Source: Escherchia phage Stokescottia. From it: 64,000 nt of DNA. This document shows, piece after piece, positions 18,647 through 28,629 of the stretch; position 1 is the stretch's first letter, and each line of letters begins with the position of its first letter. Where the stretch lies: sequence record OR896820.1. The stretch is one strand, 5' to 3'. A model generated the notes under the pieces. The model searched no databases. It was not told the origin of the DNA and worked only from the letters and a program-made list of their open reading frames with translations. Position numbers and translations under genes: made by a program.

Positions 18647-19090
18647 ATGGAAGAGAATATTTTAGATGTTTTGCGTAGAGCTTTGCAGGATTCTAAGTTT
18701 AATGGTTCTGATAAAGAAGTCGCCAAAAGCTATCAGACCATAATTGGGGATCTTCAGCGTATTGATAAAGATTTCATCACTTCTGAACAATTTGTGTCTT
18801 ATCTCAAAGCTCAACTAAAAAGCATTAACCAGATGAAAGCTAAACTTCATGGTCAAGATCTCGATAGTTATAGCCTACAGTCTGCTCAGTATGAATACAT
18901 TCTAAATAAGTGGTTGCAGGAGTATCTGCCCCCTCAGTTATCTGATACTGAGATTCGTAAATACTTTGCAGAATTAGTTAAGCTAAACCCTGGAATTACA
19001 AAGGGTATGCTGATGAAAGCGATTAAGGAAGAATTTCCTGGGCGTTATGATGGTGGTACTGCTGCTCAGATTGCTGGCGAATTTAATTAA
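18647..19090 (+). CDS. GatB/YqeY domain protein
   Basis: C-terminal KGMLMKAIKEEFPGRYDGGTAAQIAGE matches YqeY-like domain. Confidence 0.65.
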   Translation: MEENILDVLRRALQDSKFNGSDKEVAKSYQTIIGDLQRIDKDFITSEQFVSYLKAQLKSINQMKAKLHGQDLDSYSLQSAQYEYILNKWLQEYLPPQLSDTEIRKYFAELVKLNPGITKGMLMKAIKEEFPGRYDGGTAAQIAGEFN

Positions 19091-19098
19091 AAATTCAT

Positions 19099-19127
19099 TT
19101 GCTAAATGCTTATAAATTCTGTATAAT
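19099..19127 (+). promoter_or_regulatory. sigma70-type early promoter driving non-coding region
   Basis: TTGCTA 19099-19104, TATAAT 19122-19127; no ORF downstream. Confidence 0.6.
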
Positions 19128-19140
19128 ATATTCATAAATT

Positions 19141-19545
19141 AGGGAACAGCGAGCCGATTACGCTGAGTGCAGAATCCCAACCGGAGCGCATTGAATAGAG
19201 TCGGTGGGTTAGTTGTAAAACTAGTACACAGGGGGCGGCAATTCCGGTTAGTGGCTAGAACGTGTAAAATGAGGCGTCTGAAACCTCTCCCCTAAACTCT
19301 TCTCTAATTTATAAATAGTGGGGTGTGGAAATCACTTATGTAGTAACACTGCCGTCCTAGTATAATTGGTATTATCAAGCCGTAACTGGTGGAAGATGTA
19401 GGTTCGAATCCTACGGTCGGTAAGAACTGGATAACTGGTGCTTTTAACGTAAAAGCTTCCGAGGTTAGTTGCGCACTGCCTAAACCACGCGGTAGTTGGT
19501 TCCAGACTAACCAACCAGTCTGCTGAATAGTTTTATTACGATTTA
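19141..19545 (+). ncRNA. candidate structured non-coding RNA(s), unassigned
   Basis: Promoter-driven ~400 nt without ORF; contains T-arm-like GTAGGTTCGAATCCTAC and a terminal hairpin GTTGGTT-CCAGACT-AACCAAC followed by T-rich tract. Confidence 0.3.
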
Positions 19546-19924
19546 ACTATGTCCAGGCTAAAGAAGAACTTTAGAAGGTATTCTAGGATAGTGAAGTTCT
19601 TTCTCCATATCGGAGTAGTTTTTCAAGCTATCCACAAAGTGGGAAATGCTGACATGAGAGATGTCACTAATGGTGCACAATAGCACAGGTAATTCGCGAT
19701 AATTCCTGTTGAGTAGCAGCAAAAGGCGGGAAGTCATGACCCCAAGCCTAACCGAGTCCTCAATATACCGCAGGACATAACCACTAAGTCACCCTGACTT
19801 AAACTGGAAAATAATAGACGTTACCGTATTTTGTCTTGAAATACTTAATGAGTGGGACTTATGACTCTCCCGGTATCGTCTGTATTTTTAAGAGTTTTTA
19901 CGAGAGTTCTTAAAAATACTTAAA

Positions 19925-19999
19925 CGGGGTGTAGTCTAAGGGAGAGGCAGGAGTCTTCTAAATTCCTTTATGCAGGTTCGAATCCTGTCACCTCGGCCA
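19925..19999 (+). tRNA. tRNA-Arg (anticodon TCT)
   Basis: Manual cloverleaf: acceptor CGGGGTG/CACCTCG, anticodon loop CTTCTAA, T-loop TTCGAAT, discriminator G, CCA encoded. Confidence 0.75.
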
Positions 20000-21004: not shown

Positions 21005-21040
21005 AAGCCCGCGTTTTCTCCGAGAGCGCGGGCTTTTCTG
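21005..21040. terminator. bidirectional terminator hairpin 1
   Basis: AAGCCCGCG...CGCGGGCTT followed by TTTTCTG; between convergent genes. Confidence 0.6.
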
Positions 21041-23632: not shown

Positions 23633-23710
23633 GGTTCTCAAGCTCATATGGTATGAGCACCCGGCTCATAACCGGAAGGTACGTAGGTTCGAATCCTCGG
23701 GGAGCCACCA
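23633..23710 (+). tRNA. tRNA with CAT anticodon (Met or Ile-lysidine type)
   Basis: Acceptor GGTTCTC/GGGAGCC, loop CTCATAA; T-stem only 3 clean pairs; discriminator A, CCA. Confidence 0.55.
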
Positions 23711-27298: not shown

Positions 27299-27420
27299 TA
27301 AAATTTCAGTGCAGAACACGGAGCTAGCAATTCGGAAGTGCTGACTCATGATAAGCTGCCTATGTACTTGCGAAGCGGTCGTGTCCAAGACTCGGACTCT
27401 TGCACTGAAAACAATCAAAC

Positions 27421-27540
27421 ATTCTAGCGTGGTTGATGGGGAAACCAGCTTGGCGAGGGCAGAAGCTCGTTCGATTCGAGTGAAAGAATGGTTCTCGTAA
27501 GTCCGCACAAGTGATAACAGGTTCGAGTCCTGTCTAGAAT
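27421..27540 (+). ncRNA. tRNA-like element with ~45-nt internal insertion (no encoded CCA)
   Basis: Perfect 7-bp acceptor ATTCTAG/CTAGAAT, D-arm TGGT...ACCA, T-arm ACAGG-TTCGAGT-CCTGT, 120 nt with internal hairpins. Confidence 0.35.
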
Positions 27541-27690
27541 GACACTATAAAGTTTACTTATTATGTAGGTTCCGGTAGATCGGCGGGTCTATTCTGGCAT
27601 TTAAGAGAGGTCTCGCAAACTTCTTTGTCAGCCGTGGGGTTGGTAGCCTCCAGGCGGCCTACACAATAAGTAAATTTATTAAAAATTCAT

Positions 27691-28392: not shown

Positions 28393-28629
28393 ATTTATAT
28401 AAATTGATGAGGAGAAATCCTCATCATAGTTCACTAAGGTATTAGCTCGACCTAGGACTGGCTGCCAAAAAGCACGATCCCCATGATTCGGGAGAAGTTC
28501 TAGATTGGTCCACTAGATTCAGCGGCAACTGAATAGTGTATTGGGTTTGCGAGATGACGCAGTTCCTTCCGCTCGAAGCGAAGGTGCTGTAGTTACGCCG
28601 AGCTAATAGCCTTAGTAAACTAAAGAATT

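What the first reader, a model, noticed from the sequence alone, without database searches (positions are those of the whole stretch)
19141..19924. Promoter-driven ~780-nt non-coding stretch with structured RNA features
A canonical early promoter (19099-19127) is followed by no ORF. The region contains a palindromic T-arm-like element (GTAGGTTCGAATCCTAC at 19398-19414) that I could not fold into a tRNA, a strong hairpin GTTGGTT/AACCAAC with a T-rich tail near 19495-19540, and a TATAAATA at 19303. One or more stable small RNAs are likely.
Basis: seen in the sequence. Interest (0 to 1): 0.55.

Follow-up and report, generated by a model that had tools for sequence, protein, structure and literature searches.

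The report
T5 RNAX: large structured phage RNA
The stretch is the gene for "RNAX", a roughly 790-base non-coding RNA of T5-like phages that was annotated twenty years ago as a stable RNA of unknown function; comparison across the phage family shows it is an elaborately folded, modular RNA that resembles the enigmatic giant phage RNAs GOLLD and ROOL in setting and layout.

Summary
The window comes from a T5-like phage. The finding's coordinates (19141-19924) coincide exactly with the misc_RNA "rnaX: RNAX, stable RNA with unknown functions" annotated in phages BF23 and T5. That feature lies behind promoter P16-17 and directly in front of tRNA-Arg(UCU).

I found no coding signal: there is no codon periodicity, and 47 of 50 indels are not multiples of three.

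Homologues occur throughout the Demerecviridae: Tequintavirus, Epseptimavirus, Sugarlandvirus, Hongcheonvirus, Novosibvirus and Priunavirus. Compensatory base changes support at least 15 helices. In both alignments tested, 0 of 500 shuffles reached the observed covariation score.

This domain has a 6-nt "anticodon" loop and no CCA, and it sits on the tip of a conserved 12-bp stalk. In several lineages a plain hairpin replaces it, so it is an optional module.

No Rfam family other than tRNA matches. GOLLD, ROOL, tmRNA, RNase P, 6S and group I intron models give nothing.

The viable T5 st0 deletion mutant lacks the locus, so RNAX is dispensable in the laboratory.

My best reading is a stable, multi-domain scaffold RNA that RNase P releases from the early transcript. 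In kind it is analogous to GOLLD and ROOL, but it is not a member of either family. Its function remains unknown.

The parts
19099..19127 (+). Sigma-70 early promoter (TTGCTA, 17-nt spacer, TATAAT); 'P16-17' of T5 and BF23
   Evidence: The scan matches 10 of 12 consensus positions. It is annotated as promoter P16-17 in AJ604530 and AY543070. The -10 hexamer and the start region TATAATA(T/G)ATTCATAAAT are conserved in nearly all homologues, including the Klebsiella, Yersinia and Pectobacterium phages.
19136..19145 (+). P0, 5' strand (AAAUUAGGGA). It pairs with 19301-19310.
   Evidence: Read directly from the sequence. In T5-type phages the same 10-bp helix (AAAUUAGAGA/UCUCUAAUUU) closes an 8-nt loop. 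The 5' domain is therefore an insertion in this hairpin's loop.
19146..19300 (+). Optional 5' domain. It contains the hairpin CAGCG 19147-51 / CGCUG 19161-65, the hairpin GAGG 19271-74 / CCUC 19284-87, and the motif UAAACUCUUC 19293-19302.
   Evidence: It is present in window-type, Epseptimavirus, Klebsiella, Yersinia and Pectobacterium phages. It is absent from T5-type phages. In JLBYU43, CitS1, MET_P1-88 and RA40 an HNH endonuclease ORF takes its place. Compensatory variants are GAGG/CCUC, GCGG/CCGC and GUGG/CCAC and CAGCG/CGCUG versus CAGCA/UGCUG. RNAalifold alone found no compensatory pair in this domain.
19301..19310 (+). P0, 3' strand (UCUCUAAUUU)
   Evidence: Every lineage keeps some hairpin immediately before (A)AUAGUGGGG.
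19316..19330 (+). Near-invariant junction UAGUGGGGUGUSGAA
Evidence: Columns 7-13 and 16-18 are invariant in alignment A1. The motif is kept in the Pectobacterium, Proteus and Providencia phages. Its pairing partner is unresolved. A competing local hairpin exists in the 3' region.
19331..19344 (+). Stalk, 5' strands: P2 19331-34, P3 19336-39, P4 19341-44
   Evidence: These pair with 19436-39, 19431-34 and 19426-29. All 12 pairs are paired in 100% of 31 sequences, and 6 pairs show changes on both sides. P3 shows compensatory changes in the Pectobacterium phage.
19345..19350 (+). Conserved internal loop, 5' side (AACACU). It faces (U/A)AAGA at 19421-19425.
   Evidence: Invariant or nearly invariant columns in A1. 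It is conserved in all six genera sampled.
19351..19422 (+). tRNA-like domain at the tip of the stalk. Acceptor-like stem 19351-57 / 19415-21; D stem 19360-63 / 19372-75; 4-bp 'anticodon' stem 19378-81 / 19388-91 with the 6-nt loop GUAACU 19382-87; T stem 19398-402 / 19410-14. It has no CCA.
   Evidence: Rfam tRNA scores 35.5 bits, but ARAGORN is negative. Pair counts are: the T stem switches UA to CG in 11 sequences, and acceptor position 5 is A-U in T5-type sequences, U-A in BF23 and a U/U mismatch here. The Klebsiella phages carry a 14-nt insertion in the anticodon arm. A 20-35-nt hairpin replaces the whole domain in L026, L040, L045, L118, Proteus phage Stubb and Providencia phage PR1.
19426..19439 (+). 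Stalk, 3' strands (P4, P3, P2), including GAUAAC
   Evidence: The U-G pairs (17 and 21 sequences at two positions) would be C-A mismatches on the opposite strand, so the + strand is the RNA strand.
19440..19456 (+). P6 hairpin GCUUUUaacguAAAAGC
   Evidence: 94.6% of cells are paired. Position 5 occurs as UA, CG or AU in 14, 10 and 7 sequences. Position 2 switches CG to GC in 4 sequences.
19457..19635 (+). Variable middle domain.
   Evidence: The alignments show lineage-specific swapping of whole hairpins (mosaic structure) around the conserved motifs. Compensatory variants are GGCAG/CUGCC versus GACAG/CUGUC, and GUUGGUU/AACCAAC versus GUUGAUU/AAUCAAC.
19636..19815 (+). Conserved 3' domain. Hairpins: 19650-55 / 19661-66; 19685-89 / 19705-09; 19724-30 / 19740-49 (its loop carries the AGUCAUGACC core, GGAGUCAUGACC in most lineages and GGAAGUCAUGACC here); 19756-60 / 19772-76; 19781-83 / 19805-07; 19787-91 / 19795-99. 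Motifs: AACCAC and UAAACUGGAA.
   Evidence: Alignment A2 and pair counts. Across the whole of A2, which also includes the terminal hairpin listed below, 48 pairs are tested, 93% of cells are paired, and 15 pairs have changes on both sides. The covariation score is 0.200, against 0.127 for shuffles (0 of 500 reached it) and at most 0.083 for the slid controls.
19816..19881 (+). Closing helix 19816-26 / 19871-81 around a small sub-domain that carries the conserved CUUAAU
   Evidence: Four different sequence types each fold on their own into the same closing helix: AGACG.UUACC/GGUA.CGUCU, CUGACGG.AGG/CCU.CCGUCGG, GCAGUAG/CUACUGC and GACAG/CUGUC. MAFFT put the types out of register in A2, so the pair-count tool did not test this helix.
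19882..19919 (+). Terminal 17-bp hairpin, 5 nt before tRNA-Arg
   Evidence: 97.4% of cells are paired. It has three G-U pairs that form only on the + strand. It is 93-100% identical between subfamilies. It is kept whether a tRNA-Arg gene or an ORF follows.
19925..19999 (+). tRNA-Arg(UCU), a co-transcribed neighbour. Its 5' end would define the 3' end of RNAX (RNase P cleavage; inferred).
   Evidence: ARAGORN and Rfam (49.3 bits) both call it. In BF23 and T5 it is annotated directly abutting rnaX.

Best explanation
The interval is the rnaX gene of a T5-like phage. The strong early promoter P16-17 drives one transcript that runs through RNAX, tRNA-Arg(UCU) and the SPFH gene.

RNase P cleavage at the 5' end of tRNA-Arg would release RNAX (inferred from established tRNA processing). 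A 5'-terminal helix (P0) and a conserved 17-bp 3'-terminal hairpin cap the RNA. Both fit its annotation as a stable RNA (inferred).

The RNA folds into a modular, multi-domain structure:
- an optional 5' domain;
- a universally conserved stalk with an invariant internal loop, whose tip carries either a tRNA-like domain or a plain hairpin;
- a mosaic middle domain;
- a conserved 3' domain with invariant loop motifs (AGUCAUGACC, AACCAC, UAAAC three times).

Shown here: the identity of the locus, its non-coding nature, the + strand as the RNA strand, family-wide conservation, and covariation-supported helices.

Inferred: RNAX acts as a folded RNA scaffold or particle whose conserved loops bind a partner. 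The partner could be the RNA itself or part of the tRNA/translation machinery. It would not act as an antisense regulator, an mRNA or a working tRNA. This is the same mode of action suspected for GOLLD and ROOL, the giant phage RNAs that also sit beside tRNA islands.

RNAX is an accessory function and is not needed for growth on laboratory E. coli.
For: Identity. The sequence is 97.4% identical over its full length to BF23 rnaX, with the same coordinates, promoter and tRNA-Arg neighbour. The T5 rnaX annotation agrees.

Non-coding. No codon periodicity and frame-breaking indels. No long ORF.

Structure.
- Core (A1): 38 pairs, 90.1% of cells paired, 18 pairs with changes on both sides, covariation score 0.305. 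Shuffles average 0.149 (0 of 500 reached the observed value) and slid controls reach at most 0.063.
- 3' domain (A2): 48 pairs, 93% paired, 15 pairs with changes on both sides, score 0.200. Shuffles average 0.127 (0 of 500).
- The closing helix 19816-26 / 19871-81 is recovered independently in four sequence types.

Strand. Many G-U pairs are tolerated only on the + strand.

Breadth. A covariance model of the core finds one copy in the window (171 bits). It also finds homologues in Pectobacterium phage DU_PP_V (83.9 bits), Proteus phage Stubb (66.3 bits) and Providencia phage PR1 (54.6 bits). BLAST homologues occur in 525 phage records, including Klebsiella and Yersinia phages.

Modularity. The tRNA-like tip is swapped for a hairpin. 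The 5' domain is absent in some lineages or replaced by an HNH ORF.

Context and analogy. GOLLD and ROOL are phage or prophage RNAs 'often near tRNA islands'. [quoted passage not shown]

Dispensability. The T5 st0 deletion joins the truncated yqeY-like gene to the tRNA-Asp region. The core model finds no RNAX there.
Against: - No expression, end-mapping or structure-probing data were available here. 'Stable RNA' rests only on a GenBank note, and I found no paper on RNAX in the library.
- The minimum free energy of the whole region is not better than that of shuffled sequence (z = -0.75).
- Long-range pairings of the invariant motifs, such as GGGG 19320-23, cannot be resolved because those bases never vary.
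- GOLLD and ROOL covariance models do not match. The analogy is therefore one of context and architecture only. Self-assembly or partner binding is pure inference.
- Loss of the locus in T5 st0 without loss of viability means any function is conditional.
Confidence: 0.6

Rival explanations
1. tRNA-mimic decoy or sponge. The abundant early RNA displays a tRNA elbow (D loop and T loop on an acceptor/T stack). This would titrate a host factor that recognises tRNA shape, such as an anti-phage tRNA nuclease, RNase P or a modification enzyme. Alternatively it could recruit the phage's own YqeY-like protein.
For: The tRNA-like domain has a canonical T arm and a D loop with GG. The anticodon arm evolves freely while the elbow is kept. 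The gene just upstream is YqeY-like (PF09424, 25.4 bits, below the curated cut-off of 27). That synteny is kept in the Pectobacterium, Proteus and Providencia phages. T5 tRNAs are known to counter a tRNA-targeting defence (PARIS; title of PMC11464382, listed).
Against: A plain hairpin replaces the tRNA-like domain in several Epseptimavirus lineages and in the Proteus and Providencia phages, while the rest of RNAX is conserved. The tRNA-like domain therefore cannot be the core function. It accounts for only about 72 of roughly 790 nt. Only 3 Klebsiella phage records have a yqeY homologue, whereas 81 have RNAX.
Confidence: 0.15
2. A passive leader. The region is just the long 5' leader of the tRNA-Arg/SPFH early operon, made of decayed tRNA genes and remnants of mobile-element traffic. 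It has no function of its own.
For: The tRNA island is a hotspot of deletions and HNH endonuclease insertions. The locus is dispensable in T5 st0. Pipelines annotate the tRNA-like element as a pseudo-tRNA, tRNA-OTHER or tRNA-Sec. The middle domain is mosaic.
Against: Compensatory changes maintain at least 15 helices outside the tRNA-like element. Invariant motifs and the stalk persist across six genera whose flanking proteins are only 35-50% identical. The core (88% identity) and the 3' domain (86%) are about as conserved as the neighbouring coding genes (89-92%), but without codon periodicity.
Confidence: 0.08
3. A cis-acting regulatory or processing element. The structure controls the maturation, stability or timing of the downstream tRNA-Arg and SPFH mRNA. 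It could, for example, provide entry or blocking sites for RNase E, RNase III or RNase P.
For: The linkage of RNAX to tRNA-Arg(UCU) is kept in nearly all lineages. The terminal hairpin sits 5 nt from the RNase P site and is the most conserved piece of sequence.
Against: In many Epseptimavirus phages one or two ORFs separate RNAX from tRNA-Arg, yet the RNAX structure is unchanged. A multi-domain RNA of 600-1000 nt is far more than known processing signals need. The annotation describes a stable product, not a degraded leader.
Confidence: 0.12
4. Small proteins are encoded here, as several automatic annotations suggest.
For: Some GenBank records place 'hypothetical protein' CDSs in the region.
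Against: The ORFs are 45 aa or shorter on the + strand. They are not conserved. There is no third-position bias and the indels break the reading frame.
Confidence: 0.02

Closest known systems
rnaX (RNAX) of phages T5 and BF23 (GenBank AY543070, AJ604530)
   Same: It is the same gene. It is 97.4% identical to BF23 rnaX from end to end and about 93% identical to T5 over the shared part. It has the same promoter P16-17 and the same abutting tRNA-Arg.
   Different: T5 itself lacks the 5' domain (19146-19300) and carries an extra insertion of about 65 nt near 19800. The public annotation gives no structure or function, and Rfam has no family for it.
GOLLD RNA (Rfam)
   Same: It is a large, phage-encoded RNA beside a tRNA island. 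Its 3' part is conserved and its 5' part is variable or optional. A tRNA or tRNA-like unit is sometimes embedded. Its function is unknown (PMC12286853).
   Different: The covariance model gives no match even at E <= 10, in the window or in six diverse homologues. The host range differs: RNAX is found in enterobacterial Demerecviridae. Multimeric assembly has not been tested.
ROOL RNA (Rfam)
   Same: It is a phage or prophage RNA near tRNA islands. It is ornate, reportedly abundant, non-essential and of unknown function.
   Different: The model does not match. No pseudoknots have been demonstrated here. RNAX is longer and more modular.
Canonical tRNA (RF00005)
   Same: The domain 19351-19422 has acceptor, D and T arms and scores above the Rfam gathering threshold (35.5 against 29).
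   Different: It has a 6-nt 'anticodon' loop on a 3-4-bp stem, no U33 and no CCA (the neighbouring tRNA-Arg gene does encode CCA). Its flanks are locked in a 12-bp stalk. ARAGORN is negative. Hairpins replace it in some relatives.
Other stable RNAs of phage tRNA islands (T5 rna2, RNAIV and RNA2H; T4 species 1 and 2 RNAs, from my own knowledge)
   Same: They are non-tRNA stable RNAs of unknown function, co-transcribed with phage tRNAs. The window also carries homologues of rna2, RNAIV and RNA2H.
   Different: Those RNAs are 100-170 nt. RNAX is 4-8 times larger and multi-domain.

Membership tests
T5/BF23 rnaX gene | Sequence homology over the full length, in the same genomic position (promoter P16-17 upstream, tRNA-Arg downstream) | tested here: met
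   97.4% identity over 795 of 795 nt to AJ604530. The annotated misc_RNA at 71-854 of L003 equals window 19141-19924. The T5 annotation agrees.
T5/BF23 rnaX gene | Accumulates as a stable RNA in infected cells | not testable with these tools
   Only the GenBank note 'stable RNA with unknown functions'. No paper was found.
tRNA | Cloverleaf that scores above the family threshold | tested here: met
   RF00005 scores 35.5 bits against a gathering score of 29. T5 homologue 38.3 bits, Klebsiella homologue 35.1, Yersinia homologue 26.4.
tRNA | A 5-bp anticodon stem with a 7-nt loop, U33 and a readable anticodon | tested here: not met
   The model could not align the 18-nt anticodon region. The best conserved pairing is a 3-4-bp stem with the 6-nt loop GUAACU. 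ARAGORN does not call it.
tRNA | A free acceptor end with a discriminator base and CCA (encoded in the neighbouring tRNA-Arg gene) | tested here: not met
   The acceptor 3' strand is followed by AAGAAC, and both flanks are paired in stalk helices P2-P4.
tRNA | Retained in orthologous loci | tested here: not met
   Replaced by a hairpin in L026, L040, L045, L118, Proteus phage Stubb and Providencia phage PR1.
GOLLD | Match to the Rfam covariance model | tested here: not met
   No hit at E <= 10 in the window region or in six diverse homologues.
GOLLD | Large phage RNA beside a tRNA island, with a conserved 3' region and a variable 5' region | tested here: met
   The family description is from PMC12286853.
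GOLLD / ROOL | Homo-oligomeric nanocage assembly | not testable with these tools
   Needs cryo-EM or native gels of the transcript.
ROOL | Match to the Rfam covariance model | tested here: not met
   No hit at E <= 10.
   ARAGORN finds no tmRNA. No Rfam hit other than tRNA reaches its gathering score, and none of these families appears even at E <= 10.

The most novel reading that the evidence does not exclude
RNAX is a third, independently evolved class of giant phage RNA associated with tRNA islands. Like GOLLD and ROOL, it would self-assemble or form an RNP (for example with the adjacent YqeY-like tRNA-binding-domain protein). In that form it would handle tRNAs or ribosomes during infection, or shield them from host defences. 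It sits in T5, a genetically tractable E. coli phage for which a natural deletion strain (T5 st0) already exists.
Probability: 0.2. Interest if true: 0.85.

Novelty: new variant of a known kind. Interest (0 to 1): 0.62.

Why it matters
The existence of RNAX is not new. It has been annotated in T5 and BF23 for about twenty years. It has no Rfam family, and I found no published structure or function in the literature I could search.

This analysis shows that RNAX is a covariation-supported, modular RNA of 0.6-1 kb, conserved across the whole T5-like phage family. It shares its genomic niche (the edge of a phage tRNA island), its size class and its layout (optional 5' part, conserved 3' part, embedded tRNA-like unit) with GOLLD and ROOL. 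The biological roles of those two RNAs are still unknown despite their recently solved nanocage structures.

T5 and E. coli would offer a far more tractable system for asking what such RNAs do. There is a strong defined promoter, a natural deletion strain, natural variants with and without the tRNA-like tip or the 5' domain, and published infection RNA-seq data.

Tried and rejected
- **Rfam.** I scanned at gathering thresholds and at E <= 10, over the window and six diverse homologues. Only tRNA hits reached threshold. The sub-threshold hits (SpF41, Hrs13, microRNA models) are chance matches or simply reflect the tRNA-like element and hairpins.
- **Folding energy.** The whole-region minimum free energy is not significant on either strand.
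- **Motif scans.** Scanning for GTGGGGTGNNGAANNNACTTATG found 8 loci in bacterial genomes. All were chance matches that failed the profile check. In metagenomes only about 12 contigs were true, T5-like hits.
- **Looser pattern.** AGTCATGACC N{17,47} AACCAC in viral contigs returned more than 100 chance loci and nothing new.
- **SPFH-gene relatives.** The more distant phages carrying this gene (L030-L044) have no tRNAs and no RNAX at that position.
- **RNAalifold on the 5' domain.** It recovered only invariant helices, because the hairpin registers differ between lineages.
- **RNAalifold on all 54 sequences.** It mis-paired 19641-44 with 19704-07. The local hairpin 19685-89 / 19705-09 is better supported.
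- **Long-range helix GGGG 19320-23 with 19867-70.** It is compatible with the data but unproven, and it competes with a local hairpin.
- **Origin of the tRNA-like domain.** I looked for a parent tRNA. The best match is only 53 of 72 identities, so no clear parent exists.
- **YqeY as an obligate partner.** Rejected, because most Klebsiella phages with RNAX lack it.
- **Literature.** Searches for RNAX, T5 stable RNAs and Tequintavirus ncRNA found no description.
Full report
**What the window is.** The 1-kb stretch around the finding is 99% identical to many T5-like phages: Salmonella phage HMD-P5, Escherichia phages BUCT632 and fp01, and others of the genus Tequintavirus. A more sensitive search finds similar sequence in 525 phage records. 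Two of these carry an explicit annotation. In the BF23 tRNA-region record AJ604530, the feature 'rnaX: RNAX, stable RNA with unknown functions' spans exactly the interval that corresponds to window 19141-19924. It is preceded by 'promoter P16-17' and followed directly by tRNA-Arg. The T5 genome AY543070 has the same arrangement.

**Checking the observation.**
- The promoter TTGCTA-17-TATAAT at 19099-19127 is the best sigma-70-like site in the neighbourhood.
- The palindrome GTAGGTTCGAATCCTAC is at 19398-19414 as stated.
- The hairpin GTTGGTT/AACCAAC is at 19495-19501 / 19509-19515.
- TATAAATA is at 19310-19317, not 19303, and it is not conserved among relatives.
- The T-rich run after the hairpin begins about 15 nt downstream. 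No terminator-like site is found on the + strand inside the region.
- No ORF longer than 45 aa lies on the + strand.

Substitutions between homologues show no codon periodicity. The counts by codon position are 45/30/63 in the core and 88/53/96 in the 3' domain. The flanking genes give 45/16/162 and 127/59/640. In the 3' domain 47 of 50 indel events break the reading frame. The region is non-coding.

**The tRNA-like element.** ARAGORN tRNAs in the window but none in the region. The Rfam tRNA model scores 19351-19422 at 35.5 bits, above its threshold of 29. It aligns the acceptor, D and T arms but cannot align the 18-nt anticodon region. Comparison of 31 distinct homologues shows a conserved 3-4-bp stem closing a 6-nt loop (GUAACU) where the anticodon arm should be. 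There is no CCA. The acceptor-like stem has compensatory variants: position 5 is A-U in T5-type sequences, U-A in BF23 and a U/U mismatch here. Annotation pipelines call this element tRNA-OTHER, a pseudo-tRNA, tRNA-Sec(TCA) or tRNA-Pro in different phages. It is not a working tRNA.

**The element sits inside a larger conserved structure.** Strongly conserved blocks flank the tRNA-like unit. Together they form a 12-bp interrupted stalk: 19331-34/19436-39, 19336-39/19431-34 and 19341-44/19426-29. A near-invariant internal loop (AACACU opposite (U/A)AAGA) separates the stalk from the acceptor-like stem.

I tested my manual structure on alignment A1. Its 38 pairs are paired in 90.1% of cells, and 18 pairs change on both sides. 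The covariation score is 0.305. Column shuffles average 0.149, and 0 of 500 reached the observed value. With the 3' partners slid by 1-3 columns the score is at most 0.063. The stalk itself is paired in 100% of cells, with 6 compensatory pairs.

The tip of the stalk is variable. It is a normal-length tRNA-like unit in most Markadamsvirinae. In Klebsiella Sugarlandvirus phages it carries a 14-nt insertion in the anticodon arm. In some Epseptimavirus lineages and in the Proteus and Providencia phages it is a simple hairpin of 20-35 nt.

**The rest of the RNA.**
- 3' domain. Alignment A2 of 19636-19922 tests seven helices, one of them in two segments, for a total of 48 pairs. Of these, 93% of cells are paired and 15 pairs change on both sides. 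The covariation score is 0.200, against 0.127 for shuffles (0 of 500) and at most 0.083 for slid controls.
- Closing helix. Helix 19816-26/19871-81 is predicted independently in four different sequence types.
- Terminal hairpin. The 17-bp hairpin 19882-19919 is the most conserved stretch between subfamilies, at 93-100% identity. It is present whether tRNA-Arg or an ORF follows.
- 5' end. AAAUUAGGGA (19136-45) pairs with UCUCUAAUUU (19301-10). In T5-type phages this same helix closes an 8-nt loop. The 155-nt 5' domain is therefore an insertion in a hairpin loop. In JLBYU43, CitS1, MET_P1-88 and RA40 an HNH endonuclease ORF starts right at the transcription start and replaces that domain.
- Middle domain. 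The stretch 19457-19635 is a mosaic of lineage-specific hairpins around conserved motifs.
- Repeated motifs. Hairpin-UAAAC occurs three times (19293, 19481 and 19801), AACCAC twice and AGUGGG three times. The AGUCAUGACC loop core is kept in Markadamsvirinae, Sugarlandvirus and the Pectobacterium phage, and the Proteus phage keeps AGUCAUGA. These bases never vary, so covariation cannot identify their partners.
- Strand. Frequent G-U pairs identify the + strand as the RNA strand.
- Folding energy. The whole-region minimum free energy is not exceptional.

**Distribution.** A covariance model of the core finds one copy in the window, at 171 bits. The only other hits are genuine tRNAs at 22 bits or less. 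It detects homologues in Pectobacterium phage DU_PP_V (Mccorquodalevirinae, 83.9 bits), Proteus phage Stubb (Novosibvirus, 66.3 bits) and Providencia phage PR1 (Priunavirus, 54.6 bits). Each lies between a yqeY-like gene and tRNA-Arg. About a dozen metagenome contigs are T5-like. Bacterial genomes gave only chance matches. The family thus spans the Demerecviridae, and I did not find it elsewhere.

**Comparison with known families.** Rfam 15 gives no match other than tRNA above threshold. At E <= 10 nothing appears for GOLLD, ROOL, OLE, tmRNA, RNase P, 6S or group I introns, in the window or in six diverse homologues. RNAX therefore fails the membership test for every curated large-RNA family.

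In kind it is closest to GOLLD and ROOL. Kretsch et al. describe both as encoded in phages and prophages, 'often near tRNA islands', and of unknown function. [quoted passage not shown] Both form RNA nanocages (PMC12286853). RNAX shares the niche, the size class, the optional 5' part, the conserved 3' part and the embedded tRNA-like unit. Whether it multimerises is unknown.

**Function.** The T5 st0 deletion mutant joins the truncated yqeY-like gene to the region before tRNA-Asp, and the core model finds no RNAX in it. RNAX is therefore dispensable on laboratory hosts. This fits the tRNA region being a known deletion hotspot (PMC12483538).

The most likely mechanism is as follows; the inferred steps are marked.
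1. Strong early transcription from P16-17. The promoter is shown here.
2. Release of the 3' end by RNase P at tRNA-Arg. This is inferred from standard tRNA processing.
3. Stabilisation by the terminal helices. This is inferred.
4. Action as a folded scaffold whose invariant loops contact a partner. This is inferred by analogy with GOLLD and ROOL and from the pattern of invariant unpaired motifs.

A pure tRNA-decoy role is unlikely to be the core function, because the tRNA-like tip is replaceable. A passive-leader explanation is contradicted by the covariation and by conservation across genera. A cis-processing role is possible but does not explain the size or the reported stability. The adjacent YqeY-like protein is a candidate partner in most lineages, but most Klebsiella phages that have RNAX lack it.

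**Verdict.** The feature is real and non-coding. Its existence is already annotated (RNAX). Its family-wide, covariation-supported architecture and its GOLLD/ROOL-like character appear to be undescribed in Rfam and in the literature I could search. Its function is unknown. The decisive data are expression ends, structure probing, oligomeric state and phenotypes in hosts that carry defence systems. All of these are readily obtainable in T5.

Noticed in passing
window 27420-27544, 27563-27665, 28440-28611: These are homologues (96-97% identity) of three further stable RNAs annotated in T5: 'rna2' (125 nt), 'RNAIV' (103 nt) and 'RNA2H' (172 nt, behind promoter P13b). All lie inside the tRNA island and have no stated function.
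   Followed up: partly
window 23633-23707: Rfam calls a tRNA here (40.3 bits; the anticodon loop reads CUCAUAA, so anticodon CAU). ARAGORN missed it. It lies 5 nt after tRNA-Ser(GCU).
   Followed up: partly
L046 717-1199, L114 717-1199, L117 717-1199, L121 664-1146: An HNH endonuclease ORF (PF13392) begins essentially at the +1 of the RNAX promoter and replaces the RNAX 5' domain in several phages. Its stop codon lies inside the hairpin that precedes AUAGUGGGG. This looks like a homing-endonuclease insertion into an RNA gene.
   Followed up: partly
L239 (T5 st0, AY692264) 2501-2690: The st0 deletion of the common laboratory T5 strain removes everything from the middle of the yqeY-like gene to just before tRNA-Asp. 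That includes RNAX, tRNA-Arg and the SPFH gene.
   Followed up: yes
window 18647-19090 and relatives: The gene just upstream of RNAX is YqeY-like (PF09424, 25.4 bits, just under the cut-off of 27). Pipelines variously annotate it as 'tRNA amidotransferase' or 'recombination related exonuclease'. Two very different alleles (about 50-57% amino-acid identity) circulate among otherwise near-identical phages.
   Followed up: partly
L047 2168-2677, L045 1992-2501, L116 2031-2540: In many Epseptimavirus phages a 169-aa ORF with no Pfam match sits between RNAX and tRNA-Arg. Others have two small ORFs there.
   Followed up: no
L049, L051 and L052 (Klebsiella Sugarlandvirus), about 2080-2600: The Klebsiella versions of RNAX are about 250 nt longer. 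They appear to contain a second copy of part of the 3' domain and of the terminal-hairpin profile (two blkD and two blkT profile hits each). Automatic annotation places several small 'hypothetical protein' CDSs over the RNA.
   Followed up: no
L241 (Proteus phage Stubb) 3200-4012: The Proteus homologue has a different module order: AGUCAUGA lies before the stalk. It carries two T-loop-like hairpins (CUGGGUUCAACUCCCAG and GCGGUGCAAAUCCGU) in its 5' part, although it lacks the tRNA-like tip.
   Followed up: no
window 21005-21035: A strong 14-bp GC-rich terminator-like hairpin lies after the SPFH gene. It matches the annotated 'bidirectional transcription terminator ter1' of BF23 and T5, next to the annotated major DNA nick site.
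   Followed up: no
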